A stretch of DNA of 56,927 bases, from IMG/VR virus record IMGVR_UViG_3300045988_096557; one strand, 5' to 3'. The translations under genes and the position numbers were made by a program. Positions 16,611 to 34,502 of this stretch are shown here, piece by piece. Positions within the stretch are counted from its first letter, which is position 1, and each line of letters opens with the position of its first letter. This DNA comes from a virus. The notes below the pieces were generated by a model that was given only the letters and a program-made list of their open reading frames with translations, ran no database searches and was not told the DNA's origin.

Positions 16611-16633
16611 TATTTATCCTCCTTTTTCTCATA

Positions 16634-16668
16634 GGGATAATAGGGGAGGAAATCTCCCCTATTATCCC
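16634..16668. other. Stem-loop (GGGATAATAGGGGAG...TCCCCTATTATCCC) at the boundary between the tape measure protein (TMP) and the fibre gene.
   Basis: A perfect 14-bp inverted repeat. The TMP stop codon (16662-16664) lies inside it. Confidence 0.4.
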
Positions 16669-19600
16669 TTTCTTCTATTTGCCCATTGAGTAGCATCATC
16701 AGCTAAACTACGAATAGCATCTTGAATTTCATCAGAAGATGTCGCATTTGGGAACTCAACTCGCTCAATATTTATATACGGTTCAACTGTGTTGTCTGCT
16801 GGAGTAATCTAAGTATTAGATCCTAATCTTGATGCCATAAGATTAGAAATAGATAGTGCATTTCCATCAAGCGCTTTCTCTATAGAAGCTATAAAACTAG
16901 GTTCAAAAGCTCTTATAGCAGAAACCGCCGCGAGAATATTTTTCGTATCTTCTTGATTTAAAACTAACTCTTTTTCGTGTAAGAAAGCTAATTTAGCATT
17001 ATCAAATTCTCCAGTATAACCTCCTGTATCAAATCCGCTTATTTGACTTTCTTTTAACCAGCCATATGCAGAATTATTAGACTATACATGAATCGGATAT
17101 GGTCTGCCTTTAGCTATATTAGTTATTTTAACTTTCTTGCCGGGCCCACGTCTACCTGCTGGATCTGTGCCATAAGAATCATGATAATAAGTTCCACCAG
17201 TATAAATGACTTCGTCTCCTACTTCTGGGATTCCATTGCCACTTCCAGCTCCTCCGCTGGAAGATCCGCTATTACTATTGCTAGAGTTATTATCAGAAGA
17301 TTGATCTGAATTAGCAGGAGGTAAATCATCTTTATCTATTCCTCCAGCGCTTTCTATTGTATTTCCAGCTGCTCTAGCAGCCTCCTCAAGAGCTCTTATA
17401 TATTCTCTAACTGATTTAGCCATGTCTAAATATTCTTGACTTAAATCTTGAATAGTGCTTATCTATTCTAACATCTAAGTGACAGCTTCTGATCCCACAT
17501 CAGAACATAACTCTGTAGAAGTTGTAACATCATCAAGATAACCTTCTAAATCATCAAGACTTGTTCCAGTCTAATCTGCAACTCCAGAGACAGTAGTTTG
17601 ATAATCTTCCATCGCTCCGCTTGCTTCGTCCATGGCCTTAGATAGAAAATCTTCAAAATTTCCAGCATTAGAAGTCATATTAGCAAGATCTTTTGCGAAA
17701 ACATTATCAAATAAATCAATAAGTTTTGTATTACTTCCAACTATATCTTGAATCTATTCATTATCAGATAATAACAAATCAATAATACTAGAGCCAGAAT
17801 TAGCTATAATATCCTGAATTTCTTGACTTGTAATTCCAGTTAAGTCACTTACCTCGTCTCCCGCAACAATAGCCATATCAATTAAGGCTTTATTACCGGC
17901 TTCGGTCATATCCTAAATAGCGATCTATTTTTCGTTCTCTAGGTCTTTAACCTTCTGCGTATAATAAGAATAGATTTCTTGCGCGCGGGCAGATCTTTCC
18001 TCATCAGTCAAGGTCATATCAGAATAAATCTCTTTTATTTTATCCTGACATTCCTGCCAAGTAGAAATAATTTCTCCAGTAACATCTTCAACCTATTGTT
18101 TAGCTATATTATACCATTCATTCTCTGCATCAAGTAAATTCTATTCCGCATCTGCTATCTAGCTCGCATCTGCGGTGTATTGATAATTCCAGTTACCTTG
18201 ACTATCTCTTACTAATCTAAGTTGATTCTTTGCATTTTGAGCATCTTCAAGAGCCATCTAGGCCTAAAGAACATTATACTTGGCTTCAAGAATTTCTAGA
18301 TCATATTCAGATAGAGTATTATTCTCTCTACGAATATCAATTTCTTCTTGTAACTATTTCAACTAATCTTTCATTTTAGAATTAGTGGCTTTATCAATAT
18401 CCTATTGAAGTTTATTATACCAAGAAGATACTTCATATGCTTCATTTACTTTATCTAAATATCTATCTTCTTGCTCAATGTAATGATCGAACTTGTCTTG
18501 TAGCAAATCTAAGCCAACTCCGCCAGAAACCGCCTATCCAAATTCATATACGGCTCTTTCAATAGCCTAAGTATACATTTCTTGTGCAGTTTCCATAGCG
18601 GCTTGCGCGGAACTTAACATCGCCTATTGGGCTTCATTATATTCTTCTAATAATGCATCTCGATTAGCTTTTAAACCATCATATGCCGGATCTGTTTCAT
18701 CACCATCTAATGCATCTAACGCACTCTAGGCTTCTAAAAGTTCCTATTTAATACCGTCGTACCACTATTTATTTAACTGCGCATTTGCTATTTGAGCTTT
18801 CATTGTCTCTTCGCTTACTTTTTGGAGCTATTCAAATCCTTCTTCGGTTTTATATGTAACCCCCTAAAGTGTATACAATTCTTTTATAAGTCCAAGAACT
18901 GATTCATTATGATCAAGTTGATCAGTAAATTCAGCGAATCTTTCAGATGCAGCGTCTAATGCATCTGGCAACATTTCTTCAAGACCCTCTACCCAATCAA
19001 GTAGAGCTTCTGCGGTAGAAATTATTTTACCCTATAAATCAGATATTTTACTTATAATTCCATCAATATCAGTCGCATCCGTTGCGTTAGCCAATTCTTC
19101 TTGATAACTTTTAAGCGTTTCTTCATAATCCTTGATTATTTTTATATTTTCGTTCACACTATTTTCATCAATACGAGCGACTTCAATACCATGAGTTAAT
19201 TCATCACCAAATGATTCTGCAATCTTTTTAGTTAATTCACGAACAGCATCTTTAGCATCTTTTATTTCTATTACAACTTCAAGTTTATATTCAATCTAAC
19301 TCAATCTATTGTCTGCGATGCTTCTCTCTAGTTCTTCCTATTCGTCCTTTACTTCTTGAATTTTGTCAAGAGTTTCTTCATATTGGGCGAGAGCATCCTA
19401 ACGAGCTTGGAATAATTCATCAGCAGCTTCCTTTTGTAACTGCCAACTATCATATTCTGCCTATCTAGCTTCCTATTCATCTTTAGTAAGATTACTAAAG
19501 GCAACTAAAAAAGCATTATAATCCGCTAAGAAATTATTATTATAATCATCTATTATAGATTGAAGAACACTTTGATAACCTTCAATTTCTCCATTTTCAT

Positions 19601-22600
19601 CAAAAATAAGAGAATTATTAAACAACCCTTGAAGATCTGCCTAGTCTTTTGTAAGATAAGTTTCAGCTTCATTAAGTAGTTTGTTATAATTAGCTTGCTA
19701 TTTCTCTAATTCTTGAAGTTCTCTCTAGTATGCTTGAAGTTTATTGGCGCCATAGGCTCTATCTATATTATTTCCAATATCATCTAATAAATCGTTCTAA
19801 TTCTCAATTTCGCGAGTTATTTCATGGTATCTATCTTCAATATCCTTTAGAGTCTTTTCATCTTCTTCGTCATACTTAGTGCCTTCATTATCTCCGCCAC
19901 TTGAACTTCCCTTTACCCCTTCTATAGCTCCATCAATAGAATCTAATAATTTGCTCTAGGCTATTTTTGCTGCTGCTATAGCCTCATTATACCCATCAAT
20001 ACTCCCCTAATAAATGGCCCTTAGCGCTTCTCCAACTGCCTAAGATTGCTTAGCTTCAAGTGCCTCACTAGCATCACCATAAATATTTAAATCGTCTGCG
20101 GTTACAGGTTCTACATCTAAATTTGCAGTTAAAGAATTTAAGAAATCATTAGCGTTACTCGTATCTATTGTTGTTGCAGCCGAACTATCAAAAGAAACAG
20201 CAGAAGTATCAAAATCTTGCTTAGTAACATTATCAGTTCCTATTTGAGATACTTGAATTCCAGTAGCATATGCCGCATCTCTAATTTTTTCAAGATTAGC
20301 AAGAACATTTTGAGTATTTAACTATACATTAGTACTCATGTTCTGCGCGCCCTAAGCAGAATACTCGCTAACATTAGTCCATAAAGTCTACTAATTTGTA
20401 TCTTGTGCGGTTAAACTATTGACCTAATCATCTAACATTTCTCCATTAGCAAGATTCTAAGCATTTACATATCCCGCTAATAAAGTTCTCTTCTGCTCAT
20501 CTGATAATTCGTTTATAGTTAATTCTCCAGAAGCTAGCTGATCAGCGATCTTAAGCGAAGCTTCAGCCTCTCCTCGTTTAGCCTCTAAAAGAGAAATAAG
20601 ATTTTGAAGCATATTAGATTTGGTATCAGCATCAACAGCTAATTGCCCCTAAGAACTATTATAAAATGCTTGATACATCTCATCTGTTAAAGCAAATGTA
20701 CCATCCCTTAATAATTCCGCGTTAGCTATAAAACCTGGATAGATAGATTCAATAGCCTTAGCTGCTTCTCTACTAAAACTCCAAACTTGTTCTCCAGCTT
20801 CATTGGTAGTCTAGCTTACTCCATCAGAAATAGCATCGAATACACTTACAATTCCGTCAACGGAATTTTCAATCTAATCTAATTGATTCTAAAAATTTAA
20901 TTCTGCATTTATTTGTAACTAAGCTGTGCTAGAATCTATATCATCCTATAAACTACTAATTAGCTACTCTGCTAAAGTTACAGTATCAATTTTATCTTGA
21001 GCTTCTTTTGTCCCATACTCAAATGCACTAGCTACGTTATCCGCAGTTTCGGTTTTAAAAGATTCCCAATCAAAATTTTCACCTAACAAATCCCAATCAA
21101 TCGTATAATTATCAAGATTAAATTCTTCTCCGCCATTTAAGCTACCTTGATAATCATTATACGCTTCTCGAACTTGTTCCCAAGCATAAACAACTTTTTC
21201 TGCACGTTCTAATTCAGAATCGCTATATTGATTTAAAATATCCTATTGCTCAGTTATTCTCTTTTTTGCTTCACTAATCTAATCTATTAATCCATTATTG
21301 ACAGCCTAATAGGATTCATTTATAATCCTCTATAAATAACTCTATTGTTCAACTAAAGTCATAGCAAGGAACTAATTAAAATCAATAATTCCTTTTTCTT
21401 GATTTCCCCAATCAACAGTTTTAGAAAGTGATTCTAATCCTTCTCGATCTAAATCTCTATCTCCAAGAGTTTCTAAGGCAGATTGTGCAGTAGTTAAAGA
21501 TTCTGTTGCGTTTTCAACTTCGGAAATAGCATCAGTATATTTTTTAGCACTGTCATAGGCATCCTAAAAAGTCTCCTATGTTAAAGCACCCCAATTTAAT
21601 AAATTTAATACAGAAGTATCATAATTTTCATCTGTAAAAATAGATTCAAGATTACTTTTTAATTCTTCATCATTGACTAATTCTTCAACCTCTAAAATTG
21701 CGTCATAAATATCTTTAAAGCCACTAATATCAGGATTCAGAGAAGTAGATACTAAATCATTGATTATATCGTTTAATTCTTCGCCTTCATATCCAGCAGA
21801 AGTGAGCGCCTCTGTAACTTCGTTAACCCAAATTTTATACTACGCTAAACTTGATACTTGATCATCGGTAATAGTCTAATTATTAAACTCTCCAAGCTAT
21901 ACCCGAATAGCATTTATACTCTCTTTAGTTTCTTTATATTGAGTGACAACCTCTTCCATTTTATCTCGCCACTCAACAGCAGCATTGTAAAGTCCAGATG
22001 CTCCTCTTTCCGAAACAGTCATGCTATTATTCATCAAATTAATAGCATTATTTAATTGATCATAAAAATTAATTAATTCTTCTGTATTATTTGGGTCTAT
22101 AGAAAAAGCTAAGTTTCTTCTTCCGCCAATTACATTGTCATTCCAACTACTATATAAAGCGTCCACATTATTGAGAAGAATATTAGATGCAGTATCTTCT
22201 TCGGTGCCATTCCAAAAATCATTAAAACCAGTAAAAGACCCCTCATAATTTCCACCAAAATATACGTGGCCCACGCCCTCTCTCGCGGTTTCAAGAATGA
22301 GAGTTTCATTCGCACGTAACGCTTCTTCTTGGGACTACAAAGTTTCCTAAAGTTCTCTTCTTTGAGCTTCTTGAGCAGCTTTTAAAACACTATTATAATC
22401 TTCATACTATCCACTTAGTCTAGCTAATGCACTGCCTTCTAAATCATACGCTTCAGCCAACTAACGAGTTAAATCATCTAACTCTTCTTTTCCATCCCCA
22501 GTTTCTTGATAAGTAGATAAGGCATTTTGAGTAGATTGAATTAACTCTCTATTCGCTTGTGCTTCTTCTTTTTTTGCATTTGCCGCATCAATAGAGGCCT

Positions 22601-25388
22601 AAGCAGCAGCCAAGGTTGCTTCATGCTATGCTTTTATAGCACTTGTTATTGCAGTAATCGCTATTATTGCTACCATAATTGCAGCAGTTAAGATGCCGGA
22701 AGCCATAGCGGCTTTCTGCTTCGCCATAGCAAGCTATTCTGTCGCTAAAGCCTCTACTGATGTTGCCGCGGCGTCCGCCGCTGCTGCAACAGCATGAGCA
22801 GTAGTTAACATATTTAAAGTTTTATAAACAGAAATAATAGAGGGTAGTAACATACCAAGAGAAGTAAACAAAGCTACAATTCTTTCAGTTGAAGTCATAT
22901 CTTCATCAGAAAAAATTCTTCCAATGCTCTAAAAAGCATTCATAATCATAGTTAAACTAGAAAGAGAACTTCCAACCTAAACCAATATTGTAGCCCAATC
23001 TCTCGTTGGTATTAATGCTTTTGTAATTACACTAGGGAACTTCGCTAACAATTCCTAATATCGAGCCTCTTGTTCAGTTGTTCTTGCAGTAACAGACTCC
23101 AATTTTGTTAATTCATTAATATAAGAAGTAACTACTCTTGGATCGGCTCCCATAGTCTATAAAATAGTCCCAAGTTCACGAATTTGCAATTTTGCATTTT
23201 GAGACTAATTTTTTAACCCCTCTAATTGCTAAGTCAGCCATTCAATCTAAGCATAATTATGTTCTTTGCCCGTAACACTAGATAATAAATTACGAAGGCT
23301 GTCTCTAGTCGCAGTTCCAGCGCTTTCAAGTTTTTTAAATTCTTGATACACTGTATCAAGTTTTGTAGATTGCTAAATTAAACTAGTTAACTAAGTAGTA
23401 ACATCATTATAAATTTTATCAAGGTTACTATTAGCTCTTATATTTAACTAAATTTGATTACTTTTATTTCTACTATTAAATTTATTTATTTCTGCTTTAA
23501 CTTCTTCTTGCCAGCCATCTTTTATTCCTATATTAAAATAAATAGTATCTCTAAGATTTAATACATTTTCCCTAGACTAAATCTACTACTAAGAATATGT
23601 CTTTAACTAATCTTGCAAAATACTTAATTTTAACTGTTCTGTCTAAATTAATCTACGACCATTAGCATCCATCGCGTCGTAGTTACTATTTATTTGGCCC
23701 TATATATTAGCCTAGTCAACCATAATATTAAAAAGATTTTTTTCAGCCTAAGACATAGAGTTTGTTAAGCCTAATTGAGTTGCTATCTCAGCCGCTGATG
23801 CCTACAAATTTCTCGCTCTATTCTACTCTAATCCAGATAGAACTTTTATATTAGCCACCATAGAACGCATTGATTCAGCAATCTTATTTCCATAAATCCC
23901 ATTAATCAACAAAGCGGTACTAGCTAAAATACCATTTAACCCTCCCATTGCATCAATGGCGTCTGCAATACCAGATAAAAATGGAGTTAAGACATTATCT
24001 GCATTTATATACAAATCTGGATTTATGACACTATCATAAATATCCTCAGCAGATGCTTTTACTCTATCTCTAGCAGCTTCCCAAGATTCAGCATAAATAT
24101 CTGCCTGTTCCTAAAGAGATCCCTCTGCTCCATAAGCACTAGCTAAATTCTCCTAAAAGAAATCCCAATTATCCATAAGTGCAATAAGACGAGTATATTG
24201 GCGAACTCCGGCTACGGTCTAAGCCAAAGCAATCTACTAGTCATTAGATAAGGTCTCCCATTTTGAACCCATTTCATCAAGTAAGGTATCCATAGTTTTA
24301 ATCTCACCATTAACATCAAAAATATCAATACCCACTTTTTCAAGAGCTTTAGAATATTTATTTAATGTAATGCCATCATCGAGAGTTTCTCCAAGATTTA
24401 AGCCTTGGATACGAGCAAATAAAGTTCTAAATGCTGTACCTACTGTATTAGCAGACTCACGTGTCGTAGCAGTGACAGTAGCAAGAGCAGAAGCAGCATA
24501 TTCGTAACTTAATCCAACTGTATCTGCTACAGAGGCAAATTGTTGGATACCTTCTGAAATTTCATCAGAGCTAGACGCTGTATCGGCGCCTAAACGCACC
24601 ATTACATCAGCATAATATTCAAGACTCTTACTTCCATCATAGAAGTTGTTCCAAACTGCGGTCAGCTGATCCGAAGCGGTCTATGCACTAATTCCTGCGG
24701 CATTAGCCATTTTAATAGTAGTTTCAGTTCTATCTAAAACTTCCTATTCAGTAAGACCCTATTGATAATAAATCAAAGCAGCATCACTATATTCAACAGT
24801 AGTTGTACTTAATGCTTTTGCTGCTTCATTTGCCTATTGAGCAAATTTAGCCATGTCTTCCGCAGAATTTTCAGTAACTATACGAATATTTGTTAATGAT
24901 TCATTTAGATCTTGTGCATACCCATAAGCTGATTCTATGGTTCCCACAAAACTATTTAACGCGGTGGAGGTAATCTGCCATCTCATAGTATTTTTCATAG
25001 TAATCCATAACTAATCAAATATTTTGCCAGTGCGCAATGCTGGAAGCTCCGCTTTTTGAATCGCTGTTGCTACATTTAAAAAAGCCTTTTGCCCCTCGGT
25101 ACCAATCGAAATTAACGAGTTGGCATAATCTTTAAGAGTTCTTCCGCTAGATTTTAAACTATTTTCAAAAGCTACTAAATCTAACTTTCCAGTCCCTTGA
25201 TTAAATGCCTAATGCATATAAGTAGATAACTCTAGCGCAGACTAAGAAGCTTGTCGCAATTCTGCTGTAACTTTAGAACCGGCACTGATTTTATTTAAAG
25301 ATTGAACTGCCTCGTTTACTGCTCTGTAAAGTTCAGCAGTATCAACATCAAACCCAATCTAATAATTTAATCTTCTATTATTAGCCAC
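16662..25388 (-). CDS. Tail tape measure protein (TMP), about 2908 aa, with roughly 100 in-frame TAGs.
   Basis: ORFs 17082..17423, 21897..22274, 23823..24014 and 24237..24602 are all in frame 0. Hand translation shows no TAA or TGA across about 8.7 kb. The sequence is Ala/Gln/Glu/Leu-rich with coiled-coil character, and the C-terminus DTGGYTGEFDNAKLAFLHEKELVLN is typical of TMPs. GTG start with ribosome-binding site AAAGGAGGA. Confidence 0.6.
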
Positions 25389-25493
25389 AATCCTTTTCCT
25401 CCTTTATCACCCATAAAACAAATAAGGCTCTTGAGAATTATATCTCAAGAGCCTTTTAATTCTCTATCTAATTTGTAAATTATATTAGATTTA

Positions 25494-26033: not shown

Positions 26034-26049
26034 TGTAAAAACTCCTTTA

Positions 26050-26085
26050 TCTCATTTATATTTTTATTATACTAGAAAAATTAAC
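26050..26085 (-). promoter_or_regulatory. Internal sigma-70-like promoter (TTGACA-17-TATAAT) driving the chaperone and TMP genes.
   Basis: The reverse complement of 26050-26085 reads CTTGACAATAGTTAATTTTTCTAGTATAAT. Confidence 0.5.
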
Positions 26086-26098
26086 TATTGTCAAGTTT

Positions 26099-27541
26099 TT
26101 AATATGCGTATTTAGACAATATATTATTGTTTAATGTAGCAGAAATTGTTAATTTACTTATAACTTCATTAACTATATTACTACGAATTAAAGCGTCTAA
26201 TACATTTGGACCAGTATTTCCATACCACTTATTACCAGTAGAATTTTCTCCCCCAATAGAAACTATTTCATGACCGCTATTGCGAACTATGTCATCACAA
26301 ATATTATTTATAATACGCTAAATAGAAAAAACTTTACCATTAACAATAAGTAACTGACCAAGATGTCCTTTAGAAGAAGCTAGACCGCCAGAAGAAACCC
26401 ATTCATTAAAAAATGAGGCGGCTACCGATGCACGAATATTATTAAAAGATTCTTCAAAATCTGATCCAGTGAATCTATGAGCAATCATATTATAAGCAAG
26501 ATATTTTTCTGGCTAACCAGAAAAATAATCCCCTACATTCATATTTGAAAAAACCTAAATTCTATTTGCAGATTTCTTTTTATTCTACCACTTTGCATTA
26601 ACATTAGCACTAATTTCTATATTAAATACTTGATTACCCTTAGTTACTGACAAATTAAAAACATCATTATTAAAAACTTTAACAGCACCTCTACTTCCAT
26701 TGTCAGAAGTAGTATTCTATCCTCTATCAACCCACTTTAATTTTCCACCAGACTACTTAATAGCAGTATCTAATATACTATCCGCAGTATTAATTCCAAT
26801 AGATATACCTTCTGCGACTATAGCTTGACTAATCTAATTTCCAATAACTTTTCTAAAAATATATGATATTGTATTAGCAAAAGATCTAGAGTTTACACTT
26901 CCACCTTCATTTAATCTTGAAACCGCTCTACTCAACGAATCTATTACTTCTTTCGCTACATTGATATCCCCATCTTCAATAGACATAACATAGTGCTGCT
27001 AAGAATTATCTATCTAAAAACTAGTACCAATTAGCGATCTTCCTATCTAGGTTAAAGCATCAAGAACACTGACATTTATCATATTGGCTTTCATAAGAGC
27101 CTATATCAATAATCTAAAAAAATCATTAACTCTTTTTATATCAGGTGCCCCATTAGCCAACAAATTATTAAAATTGCCAGCCTATTGTAATATAGTATTA
27201 TAATTCTCAAAATTTACCTATCCACCGGCTAATTCAATTCCTTCATTGATACCTGCCGCGATCTAATCAAGAGTAGAATCCAATAAGGTACCAATCTATA
27301 AATCACTCAAAACTCTTAACCCACTCGCGGCAACTGGACCTTTAGACCGCATCTATTCTTGAATTGATACAATCTAAGTCTCAATTCCCGCAGTCTTCAT
27401 TTTACTCATTGCCTCTTGATACTATCCACTAAAGAGAATATTTGCGGACTCTACATCTCCATATTCTCTTAAATGACTACTATGATAAACAATATAATTT
27501 AAAGACCAACGCTATACATAATCATAAATATTAACATCCAT
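26099..27541 (-). CDS. Hypothetical tail-region protein, about 480 aa, with about 25 TAGs.
   Basis: Ribosome-binding site TAAGGAGATATAGG plus ATG. Hand translation stays open to TAA 26099-26101. No standard ORF of 60 aa or more is listed here because of the TAG density. Confidence 0.45.
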
Positions 27542-27600
27542 ACTCCTATATCTCCTTATAAAAAGAAAAAGGGAGGACTTTATTAAGTCCTCCCTTAAAA

Positions 27601-28992
27601 TTAAATGGTGTCATCGCTAACAGAGACTAGCTTATTGCGCATTTTTGCGCCAGAATAAGTGCTTGTGCTTTCTGCAAAACTGAGCTTGTTATTAATAGTA
27701 TAACTCTTCTCAAAGTCTCCGTTAATCTTAGTAATCTTAGCTGTAATAGGAGTTGTATTACTCTCCTTAGTAAGAATTACTAATAGGCCATCTGCCAATT
27801 CTGCGCCATCTACGGTTTGAGTCTTTGTATTGCCCTCAATACGGTCATCAGTAGAGAAGTATTTCTCATATGCTGGGTTAGTTGTTACTACAGTATACTT
27901 GGTACTATCGCTCTCTACTGGAATTTGGAGGCTAATTTGTGCGGCTTCTGGAATTGTATCTCCATAAGCCTCAGTATCATAAGCCTTTCCTGTTACAGTA
28001 CCAGTTACATCAAGTTCCGCCTCTGTGGCACTGTTAGAAACAAAATTTACAGTTACATCAGCGGCTTCACTCTCATAAGTACCAACATTCTCAGAGCATG
28101 GCTCACGAGAACCTTCGGTTTCTCCAGTTTCATCAGTAATTACCTGAATAGCGGCAAGAACTTTATGAGTTTGATCAAACTTAGTGTAGTCTGGGAAAGC
28201 GTCCATTGTAAATGTAAAGGTAGATGGATCACCGTTAGCAGCCATGCTGAATGTGAAGTTACTCTGAACCTTACAGTTAGGAATAATAAATTCAGCAGGC
28301 ATATCTACGCCATCGCTCTCACGGCGGAATAGAGTAGAAGCTTCAAGATAATAGTTTCCACCAAGCTTATCAGCGGTAATCTCAATCATCTGGGCGCCAC
28401 CAGTGCGCTTTACATAATAGTCAACTAAAACGATAGTACCAGATGGGAGCACTCCCGCATGAGAATAACAAGTTAAAGTTGATTTTCCGTCCTCTGTATA
28501 AGAAACAGAAACAGGAATGCATGGTTCAGCATTAACTTGACCATCATCTCCTAATACCATTACAAAAATGTCAGCAGAACGATGATACATTTCATTTTCA
28601 TGATCTGCAAATCCATTCCAGCAGGCTTTATCAGGAATTACGATAGTGTTAGCTGTTTCAACTTCTACCTGAGAAGTTTGATGAACGTAAATTGGAGCTT
28701 CTTTTGTTGCATCAAGCAGACCTGCACCAGAAAGAATAGAGAAGCTCTCTGGAGAAAGTAAAGCATCTTCCATTGTAAATGTTAGAGTACGCTCACCTTC
28801 CCAAGCAATCAATCTAGTATATCCACGTCCGCCCTGTGCGTATACAGTTGTTGCAGCACCTTCAAGAGTAGAGGTTCTTAAAGTGTCAAAGTACAAAACT
28901 GGTTCATTTTTATAGAACTTACGATTACCTAAAGTCTGATAGCTTTTGGCACGAAGTACTACATCGCAAATCTCACGAATACCAAAACGCAT
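27601..28992 (-). CDS. Major tail protein with a C-terminal Ig-like domain, 463 aa (no TAG).
   Basis: N-terminal block FDTLRTSTLEGAATTVYAQGGRGYTRLIAWEGERTLTFTMEDALLSPESFSILSGAG is characteristic of siphophage major tail proteins. Ribosome-binding site AAGGAGG. Confidence 0.65.
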   Translation of the reverse strand: MRFGIREICDVVLRAKSYQTLGNRKFYKNEPVLYFDTLRTSTLEGAATTVYAQGGRGYTRLIAWEGERTLTFTMEDALLSPESFSILSGAGLLDATKEAPIYVHQTSQVEVETANTIVIPDKACWNGFADHENEMYHRSADIFVMVLGDDGQVNAEPCIPVSVSYTEDGKSTLTCYSHAGVLPSGTIVLVDYYVKRTGGAQMIEITADKLGGNYYLEASTLFRRESDGVDMPAEFIIPNCKVQSNFTFSMAANGDPSTFTFTMDAFPDYTKFDQTHKVLAAIQVITDETGETEGSREPCSENVGTYESEAADVTVNFVSNSATEAELDVTGTVTGKAYDTEAYGDTIPEAAQISLQIPVESDSTKYTVVTTNPAYEKYFSTDDRIEGNTKTQTVDGAELADGLLVILTKESNTTPITAKITKINGDFEKSYTINNKLSFAESTSTYSGAKMRNKLVSVSDDTI

Positions 28993-29006
28993 GAGCTAAT
29001 TCCTCC

Positions 29007-29732
29007 TTAATTTTTAGGATGTATATCTCGCATCCATGATTCAACTGGTTTATCTGGTTTGCCGCCCGCAAGACGAACCCGCAAGTCAACATCCCATTCA
29101 ATAAACGCATTATATCTTTCCATCAAATCAAATATCTAAAACATATTTAGATTTAAGCAATCCTCTAAACTCATTGTATTAGATCCGATTGTCAAGATAG
29201 ATATATAGCGTGTTAGAACACTCTCATTATTTCCTTTGCTTTTGATTTCTGCTACTTTTCGTCTACCGCGCATTAACTTTTCAGCAATTTCTTTAGCTCG
29301 GTCATTAGCTGGATTATAGATAACATTATTTCCCTAAAATAGACTGTTTACACACAAAATCTCTTTTAGTACGCTTTGAAAAATATCAAAGTTATTATCA
29401 TCTATTAACAAAGGCTAATTTTCTCCTTGCTTAGTTAAAATTATTGAATTTCTAGTTATTACTGGTATATAATCAGGAAATAATAATGTAAGTAGCATAA
29501 TAACAGCATTTTTTTTATCTTTATCCTGTGACTATTCTAACACCTTCATCAATACTTGAAAATTAGTTAATGATGATAAAAGAGTTTCGTCCTATATTAA
29601 TGATTCTTTATCTAAACATAAATATTGAACTGCCATAAAAAATTTTGTCTCTCCCATAAGAGCTATCTCTTTAATGACGGGAACGTGAATAGTAAGTTGT
29701 AATTCAGGAATGGGAATATCAATTCCGGCCAT
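29007..29732 (-). CDS. Head-tail joining region protein, 241 aa, with 6 TAGs.
   Basis: ATG overlaps the upstream gene. The frame is open to TAA 29007-29009. It lies immediately 5' of the major tail protein. Confidence 0.45.
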
Positions 29733-29748
29733 TAAAGCTAATCTATAA

Positions 29749-30285
29749 TCAAGCAAGCGGATTTACCTTATCTTCATTTCCGCGAATAGCAAGATATGTT
29801 AGAGACAAACCAGCAAATTCTTCATCATATATATATGGCGTAGCTGATACAAATTCTAGCTCTCCTATACCCGTTAAATGAGTTCCATCAAGCATTGAAT
29901 CTATCTCTCCCGCAATTCGATAAGGTCGTAAATCATAATCTCCCAAATCCCAATTATCATAATGACAAATAATATCAATACCAAATGTATTATCTCTATA
30001 TTCAGGATTTGTAGAATTTCTAACCATAGTGCCATAAATCAATCTTAAATAAGATTTTTCTGGTCTATCAACCTTTATCTTAGGAACAGCAGAAATCTAC
30101 TTAGTATCAATCATTTCCTTTATCATATCTCCTGTAACGGTCGGTTTACTTTTCCAATCTCTAGTATTATAAGTTAATAATTTCAAAACATTCTAATTAG
30201 AAAGTATTCTTTCCATAATCAGAGAAGCATCTTTCTACATACCTAACAAACTAGATTTAGGATACTCATAAGTATTTTTTTTCAT
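29749..30285 (-). CDS. Head-tail joining region protein, 178 aa, with 3 TAGs.
   Basis: ORF 29749..30042 extended upstream in frame to ATG, with a ribosome-binding site TAAGGAGAGTG. Confidence 0.45.
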
Positions 30286-30300
30286 TTCAATTCACTCTCC

Positions 30301-31293
30301 TTAAAATAAAGATTCTACTACAATAACTTTTTCCAGTACAGTATTATCCTTCTTCCATACTAGAGTGAATTGACCATGAGTAGTTTTATTCCACACCAAC
30401 TAAACAGATTTATTTCCATTTGGACATAAAGTTACAGGAACATTCTTTTCTAATATTGACCAAGCTCCATTAGCTTCTTCTACAGAATAAGATTCTTCTA
30501 TCATTGGTTTAATAAAAGTCTCTCCCATAATCCCGCTATTTGGAGTAGGATCTTCTGGTTCGAATATTAAACCATCTTTCATACTATTTTCTATATCATC
30601 AGTATCTCTATTTATATAATCTTCTTCTGCACTCACTTCAATTACATTCTTCATACTTATATCATCTGGAGCCTAAACTTTCCAACATCTTCCAGCGAAC
30701 AAAAATTCACTATATCTATCAAAAGCATGAATAGTTTTTTCATTTCTTGGCATAAGTATGTTTAAGCTAAGATTAGGTTTATCCAATCTTTCTTGATTCT
30801 TCTAAATAGACTCGATTTGGGTTTCAACTGGACCTCGAATCGCAGCCCAAGTCTAACACCAATTCCCTTCCTAATCTTTAAACTTAATTCTATATCTACA
30901 ACGTCTTATTTCCCCTCTAAAATAAGCGTCCTCAGTTATTTCTTCAAGATAAATTATCCAATGAGTGCCAGTTTTTTTCCACTCAAAGACATCTCCAGGC
31001 TCATATTGATTAATATGATCTATGGAGATTATCTTATCATCATAGTCCTGTTTCACTTTATCTGGATTAATAAGCGCACGACACATAGGATAAATATTCA
31101 TATCTGGATCAATAGCATCTAACGTTGCATCTAAAACCTAGGTTGACTTCTAGACTAATTGAACAGTACAGGCTTGATAAGAATATAATAATGCTTTCTA
31201 AAGAGTTCTCCATTTATCTTTGATCATTCTATCTTCCTAGTGAATACCACCCTACCATTCAAATCTTTTTCGCATTAATTCAAGATTCGTCAT
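30301..31293 (-). CDS. Hypothetical virion protein, 330 aa, with about 10 TAGs.
   Basis: ORFs 30400..30654 and 30871..31101 are in the same frame. The ATG overlaps the upstream stop (ATGACGAATCTTGA), and the stop is TAA 30301-30303. Confidence 0.45.
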
Positions 31294-31588
31294 CTCTAAT
31301 CACCTACGCCAACAAATCAATACATCTAAAGACTGTTTTTCGATAAATCATAAAATCATTGCAGACATTTGAAGATAACCCTTCCAGTTTAGACAATAAA
31401 ATAAGTCCCTCAACTCTATCTTTATACATTTTAACTAATCCACTAATTTCTTCTGTTATTACATTCAAATGATTTACCCAGTCTTCATTATTCTCTCTCA
31501 TTGGAATTAACTTCCATAACTAATTAATCAATCTCTTTAAATCCTACTCTTTTGTTTCTAATGGGAAATTAATATCATATTTATCCAT
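31280..31588 (-). CDS. Hypothetical protein, 102 aa, with 3 TAGs.
   Basis: ORF 31304..31501 extended in frame. The ATG overlaps the upstream stop, and the gene ends at TGA 31280-31282. Confidence 0.4.
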
Positions 31589-32123
31589 CAAAAACACTCA
31601 TCTCTCTTAATGTTGACCAGTTTGATTTATAAGAGCCTTGATTATCAATTAGTTTTCTTCTTTTATAGAGACGCTGCATATGATGACTTTGACGTTCTGC
31701 TTCCTTTTTCAACTCTATTAATTTGGCTAAATGATTAGCCTAGGAAGTCATTTTAAAATCTGTTCCAGAATATTTCATTCTCGTCTATTCTATTGAAGCC
31801 ACCTGGCGTTGTAACCAAGTATTATACATTAGAATAGCAAGAATATTTATTTCTTCTGTCGTTAAATGTGCAGAAAAGGCTGGAATAATAGTTGCTATTC
31901 CAGTCTCTTCATCATTATTTTCTATATTGGTAAAACTGTATAATGGAAAACGAGGGAACTCAAAACCAGGAAGTGCATCCATTAGGATGTTATACAAATC
32001 TTTTTCAGTATCTTCCTATGTCCATTCCATATACATATCATCAGTAATCTTGCCAAAAAATCTATCATAAATTTCTTCAAAGGGGGTCGGATCGCCCTAA
32101 ATTGGATATTTCTTATTATCCAT
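31581..32123 (-). CDS. Hypothetical head-tail connector region protein, 180 aa, with 4 TAGs.
   Basis: ORF 31785..31997 extended in frame. Ribosome-binding site TAAGGGAGG, and stop TAA 31581-31583. Confidence 0.45.
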
Positions 32124-32142
32124 GGCTATAACCTCCCTTATA

Positions 32143-32676
32143 TCAATCAGAAATAGCTACTCTGCGTTTTGGAGTATCCTCACTTGTAGTTGACACTCTT
32201 CTTACAGGTTTCTCTTCCTTAGGATTCTTTTTATCATCTGCTGTTAATTCTAATGCTTTAGTAACATTAAATCCTAATTGTTTTTCCAAAGCATCTCTTT
32301 TAGACATATCATTTAAAGGAAGAGAAATAGCATGGGATTTAATCAGATCTTTAGTGCCTTCTGGAGCAAAATCAAGAGCATCCTTAAATTCATCTAAAGA
32401 ACACGTATTCATCCAAGAATCAATCTCTTCTTCTTTCATCCAATACTCTGGTTCAACCCTACCATTAATAAGATATTCAACAATCTCTCTATCATCTACA
32501 AGTAAGTAATTATAAATTAATTTGCGGCCTCCAGGCGTTTGTACTAGCTTTTCTAGTTCAGATACTTCAAGTTCCTTGTGTTCTCCAGGATAAAACATAC
32601 GGCGCACGCCCAATTCAGGCAATCTATATACAACACGACCTGCGCTCTTGTTATAAACAGTGCAACTATTTTTCAT
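32143..32676 (-). CDS. Hypothetical protein, 177 aa (no TAG).
   Basis: Intact ORF downstream of the capsid gene. Confidence 0.5.
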   Translation of the reverse strand: MKNSCTVYNKSAGRVVYRLPELGVRRMFYPGEHKELEVSELEKLVQTPGGRKLIYNYLLVDDREIVEYLINGRVEPEYWMKEEEIDSWMNTCSLDEFKDALDFAPEGTKDLIKSHAISLPLNDMSKRDALEKQLGFNVTKALELTADDKKNPKEEKPVRRVSTTSEDTPKRRVAISD

Positions 32677-32740
32677 AATTTTTATCTCCTTTTTCTCAAT
32701 AAATAAAAGGGGATAGGGATATTTCCCTATCCCCTGTCAA

Positions 32741-33793
32741 TTAACCATTATTTGGATTTGGGTTAGTATTATCAAGCTCGCCTTGAAGTTCAGTATCAAC
32801 ATAAGAGAAGATGTTATTCGCCATCATTACACCGACACCAACCTTACGGTAAACCTGAATATCACGAGACCAGTCGTCATTATCATCGCGTTCGCGCACG
32901 TGGGTAGTACCCTCAAAAGCAACTTTTACAGGACGGCTCTCAGCTCCACCAGGAATAATCCAAGCATAACCTGGATCGATCATCTTTTTGGAGTTAGTCT
33001 CATCCTCAAGAGTTTGGGGTAGAATTACCACTCTAGTTCCCTTGTAATTTGCAAGATAACCAGTTCCCCAATACTGATCTCTCATGTTGTCAGAAATCCA
33101 AGCATCATTATCTGGAATCATTTTTACTGCAAACTCACGAGTGCAATAAATAGTTGGCTGACCATAAGCAGTAGCAGTATTTACAAGATAATCCATAGTT
33201 GGTTCGTCAAAACCAGCAACAGCACAACGGTTTGCTGCGGGAAGCTGATTGATAGAACCCATAAGAGCTTGAGCAATCTCTCTATAAATAAGCTCTTGCA
33301 TACCCTCTGTTACAATTTGAGTAAGTTCTGCAAAGTTTACTCTTCCATCAAGGAACTCCTCAAATCCGATACGAGCAGCTCCACCAATGGCGCTTGTTCC
33401 AACTTCGAAGCTCTCAGAACCAAGCTTAAAGGTCTCATACACACCAGCAAGCCCCACACGAGTAATGAATTGCTTAGCGCGAGTAAGTCCAGTTCTACGA
33501 GTAAATACAGGCTTGTCGCCTTGTGCGAAAGTTCTAATCTCAGCAAAATTGCCATAAGAATTGAGTAAACGATTAGGAACAACTTCGTCCATAGTCTGCT
33601 CAATTAAAGAGAATAGAGTATTTTTATTTTCTCTATAAAGTTCATCTGTGCCAACAAATTCATTTAGCTCATTACGCAAAGTAGTATTTAAAGCGTCATA
33701 GCTAAAAGACTCTCCTTGATAGCTATAGGTACCAGAAGGATTTGCATTAGCGACAGTTTTCATTAAACTAAGTAAATTAGCTTTATCTAACAT
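32741..33793 (-). CDS. Major capsid protein, 350 aa (no TAG).
   Basis: Intact ORF in the capsid position after the scaffold/decoration genes. Composition and length fit a major capsid protein. Confidence 0.55.
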   Translation of the reverse strand: MLDKANLLSLMKTVANANPSGTYSYQGESFSYDALNTTLRNELNEFVGTDELYRENKNTLFSLIEQTMDEVVPNRLLNSYGNFAEIRTFAQGDKPVFTRRTGLTRAKQFITRVGLAGVYETFKLGSESFEVGTSAIGGAARIGFEEFLDGRVNFAELTQIVTEGMQELIYREIAQALMGSINQLPAANRCAVAGFDEPTMDYLVNTATAYGQPTIYCTREFAVKMIPDNDAWISDNMRDQYWGTGYLANYKGTRVVILPQTLEDETNSKKMIDPGYAWIIPGGAESRPVKVAFEGTTHVRERDDNDDWSRDIQVYRKVGVGVMMANNIFSYVDTELQGELDNTNPNPNNG

Positions 33794-33812
33794 TCTTCTT
33801 CACTCCTTCCAA

Positions 33813-34502
33813 TTAACCTACACGCTGTACTTTTACACCAGGTTGAAGATCTGGCATAGTATACACTTTTACTACTGCAAAGATAGGATCTAAATCTCCA
33901 CCTTTAGCAGAAGTTTCAGTATCTTTAGTTAAATATCCATCAGTATCAATCTTTAGACGATCGCCTACTGCAAGCTCTCCGGCATTAGCCTTAATGGTAT
34001 TAGTAGTCCAAATATCACCAATACTAATCTTAATTACGCGAGGTACCATTTTAGTTCCTTCTGGCATCAATGCAGGATAAGTAAATGTCTCCATATTTTT
34101 CTTATATGCTACATCACTACCTTCGCGTACAGCTTCTCCGGTATAATCACTTATTGTAGCAAGTGTAGAAACTGTTTGTCCAATTGGACTATATACACGA
34201 GCATTATAATTATCCTTAATCATAGCAAAATCAGCATCAGTTTCGCGATCTCTATAAATCTTTACTTCATTAAATACCATCATCCAGGCGCCAGAAGTAG
34301 CTTCCGTACTAAAATCGCATACGCCTTTTGCATAATCATACTTTACAAATTGACCGTTCTCAAGAATCTCAATAGCGCTAGCTGCGGGAAGCTGAGCATA
34401 TACTTGACCATTTCTTGGAGCGGAAAGATGGTTTGGCTCCACTTGACCATATCCATACTGGACAAAAGTGGCATTACCTAATCTTTTAGAACTCTTAGCC
34501 AT
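33813..34502 (-). CDS. Capsid-associated protein (decoration or scaffold-like), 229 aa (no TAG).
   Basis: Intact ORF between the protease/scaffold-like gene and the major capsid protein. Confidence 0.4.
   Translation of the reverse strand: MAKSSKRLGNATFVQYGYGQVEPNHLSAPRNGQVYAQLPAASAIEILENGQFVKYDYAKGVCDFSTEATSGAWMMVFNEVKIYRDRETDADFAMIKDNYNARVYSPIGQTVSTLATISDYTGEAVREGSDVAYKKNMETFTYPALMPEGTKMVPRVIKISIGDIWTTNTIKANAGELAVGDRLKIDTDGYLTKDTETSAKGGDLDPIFAVVKVYTMPDLQPGVKVQRVG

What the first reader, a model, noticed from the sequence alone, without database searches (positions are those of the whole stretch)
16662..34502. TAG codon usage is strongly partitioned: the most abundant virion proteins avoid it, while low-copy proteins are saturated with it
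Several genes contain zero TAG codons.
- Major tail protein (27601-28992, 463 aa).
- Major capsid protein (32741-33793, 350 aa).
- The neighbouring 229-aa capsid-associated gene (33813-34502).
- The 177-aa protein (32143-32676).
- The tail assembly chaperone (25494-26033, 179 aa).

Other genes carry TAG at roughly 3 to 5% of codons.
- The TMP, about 100 TAGs in 2908 codons.
- The 480-aa protein at 26099-27541, about 25.
- The 1304-aa fibre, about 40.
- The Dit-like protein, about 30.

Early plus-strand genes are mostly TAG-free. Exceptions are FolD, HNH, the small AbrB-like gene and a few small ORFs.

This pattern suggests selection against the recoded codon in highly expressed genes, since suppressor tRNA supply would be limiting. 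It may also reflect a regulatory design in which TAG-containing genes are translated efficiently only after the suppressor system is established.
Basis: seen in the sequence. Interest (0 to 1): 0.7.

Follow-up and report, generated by a model that had tools for sequence, protein, structure and literature searches.

The report
Recoded phage keeps bulk proteins amber-free
In this gut phage that reads the stop codon TAG as glutamine, TAG makes up about half of the glutamine codons in 21 late genes. It is completely absent from the capsid, tail-tube and a few neighbouring genes, in every recoded relative examined, which points to selection against the recoded codon where most protein has to be made.

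Summary
The window is part of a ~135-150 kb TAG->Gln (code 15) siphophage, distantly related to phAss-1 and to SPbeta-like Enterococcus phages.

Exact counts:
- Five late genes have 0 TAG among 37 Gln codons: 25494-26033, 27601-28992, 32143-32676, 32741-33793 and 33813-34502.
- The other 21 late genes have 288 TAG among 547 Gln codons (53%; Fisher p = 5e-12) and are homogeneous among themselves.

So the pattern is two-state, not a copy-number gradient.

- In the 21 genes TAG looks neutral: TAG/(TAG+CAG) = 0.86 against TTG/(TTG+CTG) = 0.90.
- In the five genes it is excluded: 0 against 0.85.
- Across 19 recoded relatives, whose recoding arose or was lost several times, the capsid and tail-tube orthologues never carry TAG. 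The exception is one strain-level CAG->TAG polymorphism.
- Depletion tracks codon bias (rho = -0.55), not protein conservation. The same genes are the most codon-biased in the standard-code phage EF1.

Best reading: purifying selection against a slightly costly codon in the highest-output genes. Timing does not explain it. One exception is possible: the 179-aa gene has its own conserved host-type promoter.

The early/late partition is known. The within-late partition has only been noted anecdotally.

The parts
32741..33793 (-). Major capsid protein gene, 350 aa. It has 0 TAG among 13 Gln codons (8 CAA, 5 CAG), GC 0.40, and an NNC fraction of 0.28 against about 0.12 in the TAG-bearing late genes.
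   Evidence: Counts. tblastn to annotated capsid proteins of Bacillus phages and to phAss-1. Annotation by Babkin et al.. TAG among Gln codons in the 9 lineages: 0/122. In nine further recoded contigs: 0/124. The fold search was inconclusive (pLDDT 45).
27601..28992 (-). Probable tail tube (major tail) protein gene, 463 aa. It has 0 TAG among 12 Gln codons, GC 0.40, NNC 0.33, and CGT 10 against AGA 2.
   Evidence: Counts. PHROG 2729 'virion structural protein', E = 1e-54. Top Foldseek hits are phage tail tube proteins (9jgh, 8xkn, 9n71), but from a low-confidence model. TAG among Gln codons across lineages: 0/63 and 0/54.
33813..34502 (-). 229-aa gene directly upstream of the capsid gene, function unknown (decoration or scaffold-like by position). 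It has 0 TAG among 8 Gln codons.
   Evidence: 1 TAG among 85 Gln codons across 9 lineages, 21.6 expected. Third-highest codon bias among the late families. No Pfam, PDB or NCBIfam match.
32143..32676 (-). 177-aa gene downstream of the capsid gene's terminator, function unknown. It has 0 TAG among 2 Gln codons, so depletion is weaker here.
   Evidence: 4/47 across lineages, observed/expected 0.36. No codon bias.
25494..26033 (-). 179-aa gene at the tail-chaperone position, function unverified. It has 0 TAG among 2 Gln codons, no codon bias, and its own promoter and terminator.
   Evidence: 0/28 across lineages. PHROG 30570, unknown function. Promoter. Terminator.
26066..26094 (-). Perfect host-type (sigma-70/sigma-A) promoter, TTGACA-17-TATAAT, upstream of the 179-aa gene.
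   Evidence: It scores 11-12 of 12 in six lineages although the flanking sequence has diverged.
32708..32735 (-). Terminator-like hairpin (12-bp stem, -22 kcal/mol, followed by a T-run) directly 3' of the capsid gene.
   Evidence: Present after the capsid orthologue in three other lineages.
27569..27596 (-). Terminator-like hairpin (12-bp stem, -19 kcal/mol, followed by a T-run) directly 3' of the tail-tube gene.
   Evidence: Present in two other lineages.
25424..25455 (-). Terminator-like hairpin (13-bp stem, -21.5 kcal/mol) directly 3' of the 179-aa gene.
   Evidence: Present in two other lineages.
16662..25388 (-). Tape-measure protein gene, 2908 codons, with 102 TAG, 90 CAA and 14 CAG.
   Evidence: Orthologue of the EF1 tape-measure-sized gene.
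26099..27541 (-). 480-aa gene of unknown function. TAG is enriched: 19 of 26 Gln codons.
   Evidence: Observed/expected about 2.0 over four lineages, z = 7.
29007..29756 (-). 249-aa gene upstream of the tail-tube gene. TAG is enriched across lineages.
   Evidence: Observed/expected 2.1, z = 6.3. The phAss-1 counterpart is annotated 'tail-to-head joining protein' and flagged as recoded.
34516..35781 (-). 421-aa gene between the portal and the 229-aa gene. Depletion is intermediate: 5 TAG of 17 Gln codons in the window.
   Evidence: 16/125 across lineages, observed/expected 0.49, z = -3.6.
3429..41788 (-). Late (structural) block of 26 genes with short intergenic gaps. In 21 of them TAG is 53% of Gln codons.
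   Evidence: Includes the portal (35790-37415), the large terminase (37793-39538) and an HNH endonuclease (37433-37789).
40718..41788 (-). First gene of the late block. It is sigma-factor-like by PHROG only, has 11 TAG, and lies behind a TTGACA-17-TATTAT promoter at 41817-41789.
   Evidence: PHROG 5767, E = 1e-38. No Pfam support. Promoter. TAG is present in all recoded lineages.
42902..56359 (+). Early block of small genes with higher GC. It is TAG-poor: 14 TAG among 132 Gln codons.

Best explanation
The window comes from a phage that decodes TAG as glutamine with its own amber-suppressor tRNA.

In most late genes TAG behaves as an ordinary synonymous Gln codon that has drifted to mutational equilibrium: about half of Gln codons, the same fraction in every such gene.

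The genes whose products are needed in the largest amounts are the capsid protein, the tail-tube protein and the 229-aa protein next to the capsid gene. The 421-aa and 177-aa genes are affected more weakly. In these genes CAG->TAG mutations are removed by purifying selection.

The proposed reason is that each UAG carries a small extra cost. Decoding may be slower, or termination by host release factor 1 may occasionally win. That cost is multiplied by the number of translation events.

The codon is therefore tolerated where output is low and purged where output is highest, as an extreme case of ordinary translational selection on codon usage.

Shown here:
- the two-state pattern;
- its conservation across lineages;
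- the neutral control (TTG/CTG);
- the link with codon bias;
- the suppressor tRNA in a strain-level relative.

Inferred: the per-codon cost, and high expression of these genes.

The 179-aa gene may be a separate case. It has no codon bias but carries a conserved strong host-type promoter and a terminator of its own. It may simply need to be translatable without the suppressor.
For: 1. Two states. The five genes have 0/37 TAG among Gln codons against 288/547 in the other late genes (Fisher p = 5e-12). The 21 TAG-bearing genes are homogeneous (chi-square p = 0.27).

2. Neutral control.
- In the 21 genes TAG/(TAG+CAG) = 0.86, close to TTG/(TTG+CTG) = 0.90.
- In the five genes the values are 0 and 0.85 (P = 4e-12).
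- The same contrast appears in relatives, for example 26 TTG : 1 CTG but 0 TAG : 39 CAG.

3. Conservation.
- Nine lineages with 52-100% capsid identity: capsid 0/122, tail tube 0/63, 229-aa 1/85, 179-aa 0/28.
- An independent set of nine recoded contigs: capsid 0/124, tail tube 0/54.
- Recoded and standard-code lineages interleave on the capsid tree, so the pattern recurs after separate changes of code.

4. Gln codons are not frozen in the five genes. 37 of 76 shared Gln columns switch between CAA and CAG, yet TAG appears in only 3. In the other genes it appears in 187 of 279.

5. One strain (L004) has CAG->TAG at capsid codon 240. The mutation therefore arises and is viable, but it is never fixed in deeper lineages.

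6. Expression proxies.
- Capsid and tail-tube genes have NNC fractions of 0.28-0.33 against 0.12, and prefer CGT over AGA.
- TAG observed/expected against codon bias: rho = -0.55, p = 0.02. Against protein identity: rho = 0.12.
- In the standard-code phage EF1 the same orthologues are the most biased late genes, with NNC 0.48 and 0.43.
- The strong hairpin terminators inside the late block each sit directly after the capsid, tail-tube or 179-aa gene.

7. TAG means Gln.
- TAG sites align with Gln in relatives as often as CAA and CAG sites do: 55% against 52% and 55%.
- A tRNA with anticodon CTA lies on the same contig as a 99%-identical capsid gene.
- phAss-1 carries two to three such tRNAs.
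Against: - There is no direct measure of expression or of suppression efficiency.
- The functions of the 229-aa, 177-aa and 179-aa proteins are unknown. 'Abundant virion protein' is established, and only moderately, for two of the five genes.
- The 179-aa and 177-aa genes show no general codon bias. High expression is therefore not independently indicated for them.
- The 102 TAGs in the tape-measure gene imply very efficient decoding, which leaves only a small per-codon cost to select on.
- TAG in the other genes shows no special 3' context and no positional bias. There is thus no independent sign of competition with a release factor.
- In crAss-like phages the capsid gene can carry in-frame stops, and a tail-tube family prefers TAG. 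The rule is not general.
Confidence: 0.6

Rival explanations
1. Timing, or independence from the suppressor. The TAG-free late genes must be translated before the suppressor tRNA is available, or without it, as early genes must. They stay compatible with the standard code for that reason.
For: - The early block is TAG-poor, as in the published model.
- The 179-aa gene has a conserved, near-perfect host-type promoter and its own terminator, and no codon bias. That fits expression by unmodified host machinery.
Against: - The capsid, 229-aa and tail-tube genes have no conserved host-type promoter.
- They lie 13-19 bp behind TAG-bearing genes in one operon.
- Their assembly partners, the portal and the 421-aa protein, carry TAG.
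- A capsid TAG variant exists in a natural strain.
- The depletion tracks codon bias.
Confidence: 0.15
2. Assembly poisoning. TAG is avoided not because of output as such. Occasional truncated subunits of proteins that polymerise into large lattices (capsid shell, tail tube, decoration or scaffold) would act as dominant-negative poisons.
For: - The clearest TAG-free genes encode the two large homopolymers of the virion.
- The 229-aa gene lies next to the capsid gene.
- TAG exclusion is all-or-none rather than graded.
Against: - It cannot be separated from the output model with sequence data.
- The strong general codon bias of the capsid and tail-tube genes is predicted by the output model and not by poisoning.
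- The portal, also an oligomer that nucleates assembly, carries 12 TAG.
Confidence: 0.12
3. Evolutionary rate or age. TAG accumulates in fast-evolving genes, or only since a recent change of code, and the five genes are simply too conserved to have acquired it.
For: Lou et al. report that genes with in-frame TAG mutate more often, and they suggest that fast evolution predicts TAG.
Against: - TAG depletion is unrelated to protein identity (rho = 0.12).
- The 179-aa (about 30% identity), 229-aa (about 45%) and 177-aa genes are among the most divergent, yet TAG-free.
- The large terminase is more conserved than the capsid protein, yet carries 14 TAG.
- CAA/CAG turnover is active in the five genes.
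- TAG is at equilibrium in the other genes.
Confidence: 0.04
4. Mosaic origin. The TAG-free genes, which have higher GC, were recently acquired from standard-code relatives.
For: - The five genes have higher GC than their neighbours: 0.35-0.40 against 0.30-0.35.
- Standard-code relatives exist within the family.
Against: - The genes lie at three separate places in the operon.
- Their identity to each relative follows the same order as neighbouring genes.
- The pattern holds in 19 recoded lineages, so transfer would have to recur in each.
- The higher GC is accounted for by third-position codon bias (NNC, CGT, CAG), which is also seen in EF1.
Confidence: 0.04

Closest known systems
Early/late partition of recoded stop codons in gut phages (Ivanova 2014; Yutin 2021, PMC7886860; Borges et al., bioRxiv 10.1101/2021.08.26.457843)
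   Same: - TAG is read as Gln by a phage suppressor tRNA.
- The early block is nearly free of TAG and the structural block is rich in it.
- Homing endonucleases carry the recoded codon.
   Different: - The published model treats the structural module as uniformly recoded. It tested only for families enriched in TAG (lysis genes, and a tail-tube family in crAss-like phages).
- Here the capsid and tail-tube genes inside the recoded module are strictly TAG-free, the opposite of the crAss tail-tube result.
- The remaining late genes look neutral rather than enriched.
phAss-1 / proposed Phassvirus and related 'Caudoviricetes code 15 clade' (Babkin et al. 2023, PMC10607447)
   Same: - Same broad phage group: capsid 52% identical, conserved gene order around the capsid gene, suppressor tRNA of the same type.
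- Their annotation table leaves the capsid gene and its neighbours unflagged for TAG.
   Different: - Different genus-level lineage: 35-50% identity for most proteins, and the tape-measure gene sits elsewhere in phAss-1.
- The paper does not comment on the TAG-free subset.
Remark that the capsid gene lacks TAG in one amber-reassigned Crassvirales genome (bioRxiv 10.64898/2026.08.21.746148)
   Same: The same observation for the capsid gene, and the same suggested reason: pressure for efficient translation.
   Different: - A single genome, one gene, no statistics, no neutral control and no comparison across lineages.
- A different phage order.
Translational selection on codon usage in highly expressed genes, including phage structural genes (general knowledge, not a tool result)
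   Same: - Bias is concentrated in the capsid and tail-tube genes.
- It correlates with other preferred codons (NNC, CGT).
- It is present in the standard-code relative EF1.
   Different: - The disfavoured codon is a reassigned stop codon.
- Its exclusion is complete rather than a shift in frequency.
- It also extends to genes without other codon bias.

Membership tests
Code 15 (TAG->Gln) recoded phage | In-frame TAG in conserved, essential genes; ORFs are restored when TAG is read as sense. | tested here: met
   The longest ORF rises from 465 to 2914 codons. The terminase, portal and tape-measure genes carry 14, 12 and 102 TAG.
Code 15 (TAG->Gln) recoded phage | TAG positions correspond to glutamine in homologues. 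| tested here: met
   55% of aligned positions are Gln, the same as for CAA (52%) and CAG (55%) sites. A CAG/TAG polymorphism exists between strains.
Code 15 (TAG->Gln) recoded phage | A phage-encoded suppressor tRNA with anticodon CTA. | tested here: met
   None lies in the window. One lies on contig IMGVR_UViG_3300045988_091188, which also carries a 99%-identical capsid gene. It is homologous to a phAss-1 suppressor.
Code 15 (TAG->Gln) recoded phage | TAG is no longer used as a stop codon. | not tested
   Genes were called with TAA and TGA as the only stops, so the question was not put independently. The standard-code relative EF1 ends 6 of 27 late genes with TAG.
Stop-codon recoding as a timer of late/lytic genes (Borges model) | Early genes are compatible with the standard code; structural genes need the alternative code. 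| tested here: met
   In the early block TAG is 0.11 of Gln codons, against 0.53 in 21 late genes.
Stop-codon recoding as a timer of late/lytic genes (Borges model) | The structural module as a whole is gated by its own recoded codons. | tested here: not met
   Five late genes, including the capsid and tail-tube genes, contain none, in all recoded lineages.
Stop-codon recoding as a timer of late/lytic genes (Borges model) | Lysis genes preferentially use the recoded codon. | not tested
   No lysin or holin was identified with confidence in the window. The only candidate is a CmpB-like membrane protein, 2924-3382, with 1 TAG.
Translational selection on codon usage | Avoidance is concentrated in genes that show other marks of high expression. 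| tested here: met
   rho = -0.55 (p = 0.02) between TAG observed/expected and the NNC bias. The capsid, tail-tube and 229-aa genes rank top three. The EF1 orthologues behave the same way.
Translational selection on codon usage | The pattern is maintained by selection, not by shared ancestry or low mutation input. | tested here: met
   It is conserved across interleaved recoded and standard-code lineages. CAA/CAG turnover occurs without TAG. The TTG/CTG control agrees.
Translational selection on codon usage | Measured high protein output of the avoiding genes, and a measured cost of the avoided codon. | not testable with these tools
   Needs proteomics or ribosome profiling of an infected host. 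No host is known.
HK97-fold major capsid protein (gene 32741-33793) | HK97-like fold, or significant similarity to known capsid proteins. | tested here: inconclusive
   - tblastn E = 9e-8 to annotated capsid proteins of Bacillus phages.
- No match in the local Pfam, NCBIfam or PDB sequence searches.
- The model has pLDDT 45, and only non-significant encapsulin and capsid hits were found.
Siphophage tail tube protein (gene 27601-28992) | Tail-tube fold, and a position between the head-tail joining genes and the tape-measure gene. | tested here: inconclusive
   - Top Foldseek hits are tail tube proteins at probability 1.0, but TM-scores are 0.2-0.36 and the core of the model has low confidence.
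- The position fits.
- PHROG calls it 'virion structural protein'.

The most novel reading that the evidence does not exclude
A two-tier design of a recoded late operon.

- The whole late block starts at a host-type promoter.
- Its first genes are TAG-rich: the sigma-factor-like gene with 11 TAG, then the terminase and portal genes.
- Until the suppressor tRNA is present, ribosomes stop there and transcription of everything downstream is cut off by polarity.
- The bulk-protein genes further down are therefore gated without carrying any TAG themselves, and so escape the codon's cost.
- Hairpins after the capsid and tail-tube genes then set the relative amounts.

If this is right, recoding acts at the level of the operon rather than the gene. 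The TAG-free set marks where the cost of the new codon outweighs its regulatory use.
Probability: 0.25. Interest if true: 0.65.

Novelty: new variant of a known kind. Interest (0 to 1): 0.5.

Why it matters
Stop-codon recoding in phages is usually described as a switch that separates early from late genes. This case adds three points.

- Inside the late module the reassigned codon behaves neutrally in most genes.
- It is strictly purged from the genes with the highest output.
- The same thing happens in lineages that changed code separately.

This gives a sequence-level estimate of where a reassigned codon still costs something, which bears on how code changes spread through a genome.

It also cautions against two practices:
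- using 'capsid gene intact under the standard code' as evidence that a phage is not recoded;
- assuming that every late gene is gated by its own recoded codons.

Finally, it offers a simple test that can be run on all code-15 and code-4 phages: observed against expected use of the recoded codon per gene family, with TTG/CTG as a neutral control.

Tried and rejected
- Chance and composition were rejected by the exact counts, the out-of-frame TAG densities and the Gln-codon test.
- A copy-number gradient was rejected. The 21 TAG-bearing genes are homogeneous.
- The evolutionary-rate explanation was rejected.
- Mosaic origin was rejected.
- A 5' bias of TAG, as a sign of a gating design, was not significant: P = 0.08-0.35.
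- A special base after TAG, as a sign of competition with a release factor, was not found. The distribution equals the background for all codons.
- Structure prediction of the capsid and tail-tube proteins gave poor models, pLDDT 45 and 60.
  - The capsid fold search was uninformative.
  - Pfam, NCBIfam and PDB sequence searches found nothing for any of the five proteins.
- The search for the suppressor tRNA through the phAss-1 ribonucleotide reductase reached only close phAss-1 relatives. A tRNA pattern scan then found it.
- Host identification failed. The bacterial genome hits are whole phage contigs placed in unrelated bins.
- The sigma-factor label of gene 40718-41788 has no Pfam support.


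Full report
WHAT THE WINDOW IS

The window has 35% GC. Under the standard code its longest ORF is 465 codons. With TAG read as sense it is 2914 codons.

The gene map has three parts:
- A minus-strand block of 26 tightly packed genes, 3429-41788.
- A plus-strand block of about 40 small genes with higher GC, 41885-56359.
- Five plus-strand genes at 133-3382.

PHROG matches in the minus-strand block identify the portal, the large terminase, an HNH endonuclease and several 'virion structural' proteins.

The capsid candidate is 52% identical to that of phage phAss-1, which is filed under 'Caudoviricetes code 15 clade'. It is 36% identical to those of SPbeta-like Enterococcus phages.

Related contigs are 92-168 kb long, so the window is roughly 40% of a genome.

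The window holds no tRNA and no Rfam family.

THE OBSERVATION

Exact counts confirm five TAG-free late genes:
- 25494-26033
- 27601-28992
- 32143-32676
- 32741-33793
- 33813-34502

Together they hold 37 Gln codons, all of them CAA or CAG. The other 21 late genes hold 288 TAG, 213 CAA and 46 CAG.

They were too high for the 480-aa gene (19, not about 25) and for the 1304-aa gene (27, not about 40).

The contrast is far beyond chance: Fisher p = 5e-12. It is not a depletion of the trinucleotide, because out-of-frame TAG is normal in the five genes.

Two refinements matter.
- The 21 TAG-bearing genes do not differ from one another in TAG share of Gln codons (chi-square p = 0.27). The pattern is two-state, not a gradient with copy number.
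- The 179-aa and 177-aa genes have only two Gln codons each. On the window alone they prove nothing.

TAG MEANS GLUTAMINE, AND THE PHAGE SUPPLIES THE tRNA

- Window TAG sites align with Gln in eight other lineages at 55% of positions. This is indistinguishable from CAA sites (52%) and CAG sites (55%). The remaining aligned residues are typical Gln replacements: E, K, S, N, R.
- A strain 99% identical in the capsid gene differs by CAG->TAG at codon 240.
- That same contig carries a tRNA with anticodon CTA in a tRNA cluster. It is alignable with one of the phAss-1 suppressors (phAss-1 tRNAs).

COMPARATIVE EVIDENCE

The first set was twenty-nine viral contigs plus phAss-1, which fall into nine lineages with 52-100% capsid identity.

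In each lineage the five families are depleted relative to the others. Pooled counts of TAG among Gln codons are:

| Gene family | TAG / Gln codons | Expected TAG or observed/expected |
|---|---|---|
| Capsid | 0/122 | 32 expected |
| Tail tube | 0/63 | 20 expected |
| 229-aa | 1/85 | 22 expected |
| 179-aa | 0/28 | 5.5 expected |
| 177-aa | 4/47 | 11 expected |
| 421-aa (34516-35781) | 16/125 | O/E 0.49 |
| 480-aa | - | O/E about 2 |
| 249-aa | - | O/E about 2 |

The 421-aa gene is thus intermediate. The 480-aa and 249-aa genes, which flank the tail-tube gene, are enriched.

A second, independent set came from bacterial genome bins. These are whole phage contigs, so the bin names say nothing about the host. 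This set added nine recoded contigs, in which the capsid gene has 0/124 and the tail-tube gene 0/54. It also added about ten standard-code relatives.

On a capsid tree, recoded and standard-code lineages interleave. The code has therefore changed several times, and the same genes stay TAG-free each time.

The supplementary table of Babkin et al. independently leaves the phAss-1 capsid gene and its neighbours unflagged for TAG, without comment.

SELECTION, NOT HISTORY

- In the 21 genes TAG/(TAG+CAG) = 0.86, which matches TTG/(TTG+CTG) = 0.90. TTG/CTG is a synonymous pair that differs by the same first-position C/T change. In the five genes TTG/(TTG+CTG) = 0.85 but TAG is absent (P = 4e-12).
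- In several relatives the five genes strongly prefer CAG, the codon one transition away from TAG, and still have no TAG.
- Gln codons in the five genes are not frozen. 37 of 76 shared Gln columns switch between CAA and CAG, and only 9 of 134 Gln-containing columns are fully conserved.
- TAG depletion does not follow protein conservation (rho = 0.12). The 179-aa, 229-aa and 177-aa proteins are among the most divergent, while the more conserved terminase has 14 TAG.

These results dispose of the evolutionary-rate idea raised by Lou et al.. They also dispose of recent acquisition from standard-code phages.

WHY THESE GENES

The capsid and tail-tube genes show the classical marks of translational selection:
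- NNC fractions of 0.28-0.33 against 0.12.
- CGT preferred over AGA.
- More G-ending Lys, Glu and Gln codons.
- GC of 0.40.

Across the 17 late families, TAG observed/expected falls with this bias (rho = -0.55, p = 0.02). The capsid, tail-tube and 229-aa genes are the three most biased.

In the cultured standard-code relative EF1, whose host is Enterococcus faecalis, the orthologues of the capsid and tail-tube genes are again the most biased late genes (NNC 0.48 and 0.43). The 229-aa orthologue comes next among the genes that have a window counterpart.

Four strong terminator-like hairpins were found on the coding strand of the 38-kb late block. Three lie inside it, directly after the capsid, tail-tube and 179-aa genes. 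The fourth marks its end. In relatives, strong hairpins also occur only after these genes.

The identities are moderately supported:
- Capsid: annotated homologues.
- Tail tube: position, plus consistent Foldseek hits from a weak model.

The other three proteins have no informative match.

MECHANISM PROPOSED

The steps below are inference.
- UAG is decoded by a phage suppressor tRNA and carries a small residual cost.
- The tape-measure gene has 102 TAGs. A 10% yield of full-length protein needs about 97.8% success per codon, and a 50% yield needs about 99.3%. Decoding must therefore be efficient.
- If the capsid gene used TAG at the common rate, it would have about 7 of its 13 Gln codons as TAG. 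A failure rate of 1-2% per codon would then waste roughly 7-13% of capsid protein synthesis.
- That loss is large in absolute terms for the most abundant product and negligible for a 12-copy portal.
- The codon therefore drifts to equilibrium where output is low and is purged where output is high.
- The strain-level capsid TAG variant fits a slightly deleterious mutation: it is viable but not fixed.

I found no positional or sequence-context signature of gating or of release-factor competition in the TAG-bearing genes. This is neutral to mildly unfavourable for the cost argument.

THE TIMING ALTERNATIVE

The published model explains the TAG-poor early block. For the capsid and tail-tube genes it fits poorly:
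- They have no conserved host-type promoter.
- They lie within a few bases of TAG-bearing genes.
- Their assembly partners carry TAG.

The 179-aa gene is different. A perfect TTGACA-17-TATAAT promoter precedes it, and this promoter scores 11-12 of 12 in six lineages although the surrounding sequence has diverged. A hairpin follows it, and it has no codon bias. It may be a self-contained unit that is expressed independently of the suppressor. Its 'chaperone' label is unverified.

The late block itself starts at a host-type promoter. Its first gene has 11 TAG and is sigma-factor-like by PHROG only. This suggests, but does not show, that TAG in the leading genes could gate the whole operon through polarity. 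The bulk-protein genes would then be free of any need for TAG of their own.

COMPARISON WITH THE LITERATURE

- The early/late split is established.
- Borges et al. tested only for families that prefer the recoded codon. In crAss-like phages they found lysis genes and a tail-tube family.
- Yutin et al. used stop codons in the capsid gene as a sign of recoding, and Peters et al. list capsid among proteins identified under code-15 predictions. Avoidance is therefore not universal.
- One 2026 preprint remarks that the capsid gene of a single crAss-like genome lacks TAG, and suggests translational efficiency as the reason.
- Cook et al. report that the capsid gene is often identifiable under the standard code in code-15 phages. 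This is compatible with the avoidance being common.
- I found no systematic description of a within-late partition, no neutral control and no comparison across lineages.

VERDICT

Its copy-number gradient and its 'limiting supply' wording are not supported. Its regulatory alternative explains the early/late split only.

This is a new variant of a known phenomenon and is of moderate interest.

Noticed in passing
window 1-2284: A diversity-generating retroelement.
- Bases 1-37 are the end of a variable repeat of a target gene that lies mostly outside the window.
- They match bases 724-760 (the template repeat, within an AAC-rich stretch at about 665-762) at 84%. Every difference falls at an adenine of the template.
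- An accessory-protein-sized gene (133-627) and a reverse transcriptase (1067-2284, Pfam RVT_1, E = 5e-17) complete the cassette.
- The 'ORF' 690-980 is probably the template RNA, not a gene.
   Followed up: partly
window 44325-44762 and 43510-44340: The TAG-free early block encodes a PTH2-type peptidyl-tRNA hydrolase (E = 1e-22) and a microbial-type poly(ADP-ribose) glycohydrolase (E = 4e-26). A phage peptidyl-tRNA hydrolase could recycle tRNAs released from ribosomes stalled at UAG. I did not check whether it is conserved in relatives.
   Followed up: no
window 25424-26094: The 179-aa gene is a self-contained unit inside the tail module. It has a perfect host-type promoter (26094-26066) and a strong hairpin (25455-25424). 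The promoter is conserved at 11-12 of 12 in six lineages whose flanking sequence has diverged. This layout resembles a 'moron' (an independently transcribed gene inserted among late genes), which questions the tail-chaperone label.
   Followed up: partly
window 40718-41817: The first gene of the late block has 11 TAG and lies behind a TTGACA-17-TATTAT promoter with an extended -10 TG. PHROG calls it a sigma factor and Pfam finds nothing. TAG is present in this gene in all recoded lineages. It could act as a translational gate on late expression.
   Followed up: partly
window 26099-27541 and 29007-29756: The two genes flanking the TAG-free tail-tube gene are the most TAG-enriched families. Observed/expected is about 2.0 and 2.1 across lineages (z = 7.2 and 6.3). 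Their functions are unknown and the enrichment is unexplained.
   Followed up: no
L166-L186 and L001-L030 (capsid tree): Within this phage family, recoded and standard-code lineages interleave on the capsid tree. The TAG share of Gln codons in late genes ranges from 0 through about 0.13 to 0.53. The code has therefore changed repeatedly over short distances.
   Followed up: partly
L004, capsid orthologue codon 240: A strain with a capsid gene 99% identical to the window's carries CAG->TAG at codon 240. This is the only TAG seen in any capsid orthologue.
   Followed up: yes
window 52000-54000: GC rises to 0.48 here, and genes 52832-53308 and 53415-53765 reach 0.53 and 0.50. This is far above the rest of the window (0.30-0.41). 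Pfam gives only a sub-threshold RPA_C match for 52832-53308 and nothing for 53415-53765. The region may have been acquired recently.
   Followed up: no
window 54296-54964, 53844-54299, 37433-37789: All three homing-endonuclease-type genes (HNH/NUMOD4, T5orf172, HNH) contain TAG, including the two that lie in the otherwise TAG-poor early block. Borges et al. reported the same for an intron endonuclease.
   Followed up: no
L166-L186 (record titles): Whole phage contigs of 140-175 kb from this family are deposited inside genome bins named Oscillospiraceae, Collinsella, Gastranaerophilales, Treponema, Methanobrevibacter and others. These assignments are binning artefacts and cannot be used to name a host.
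   Followed up: no
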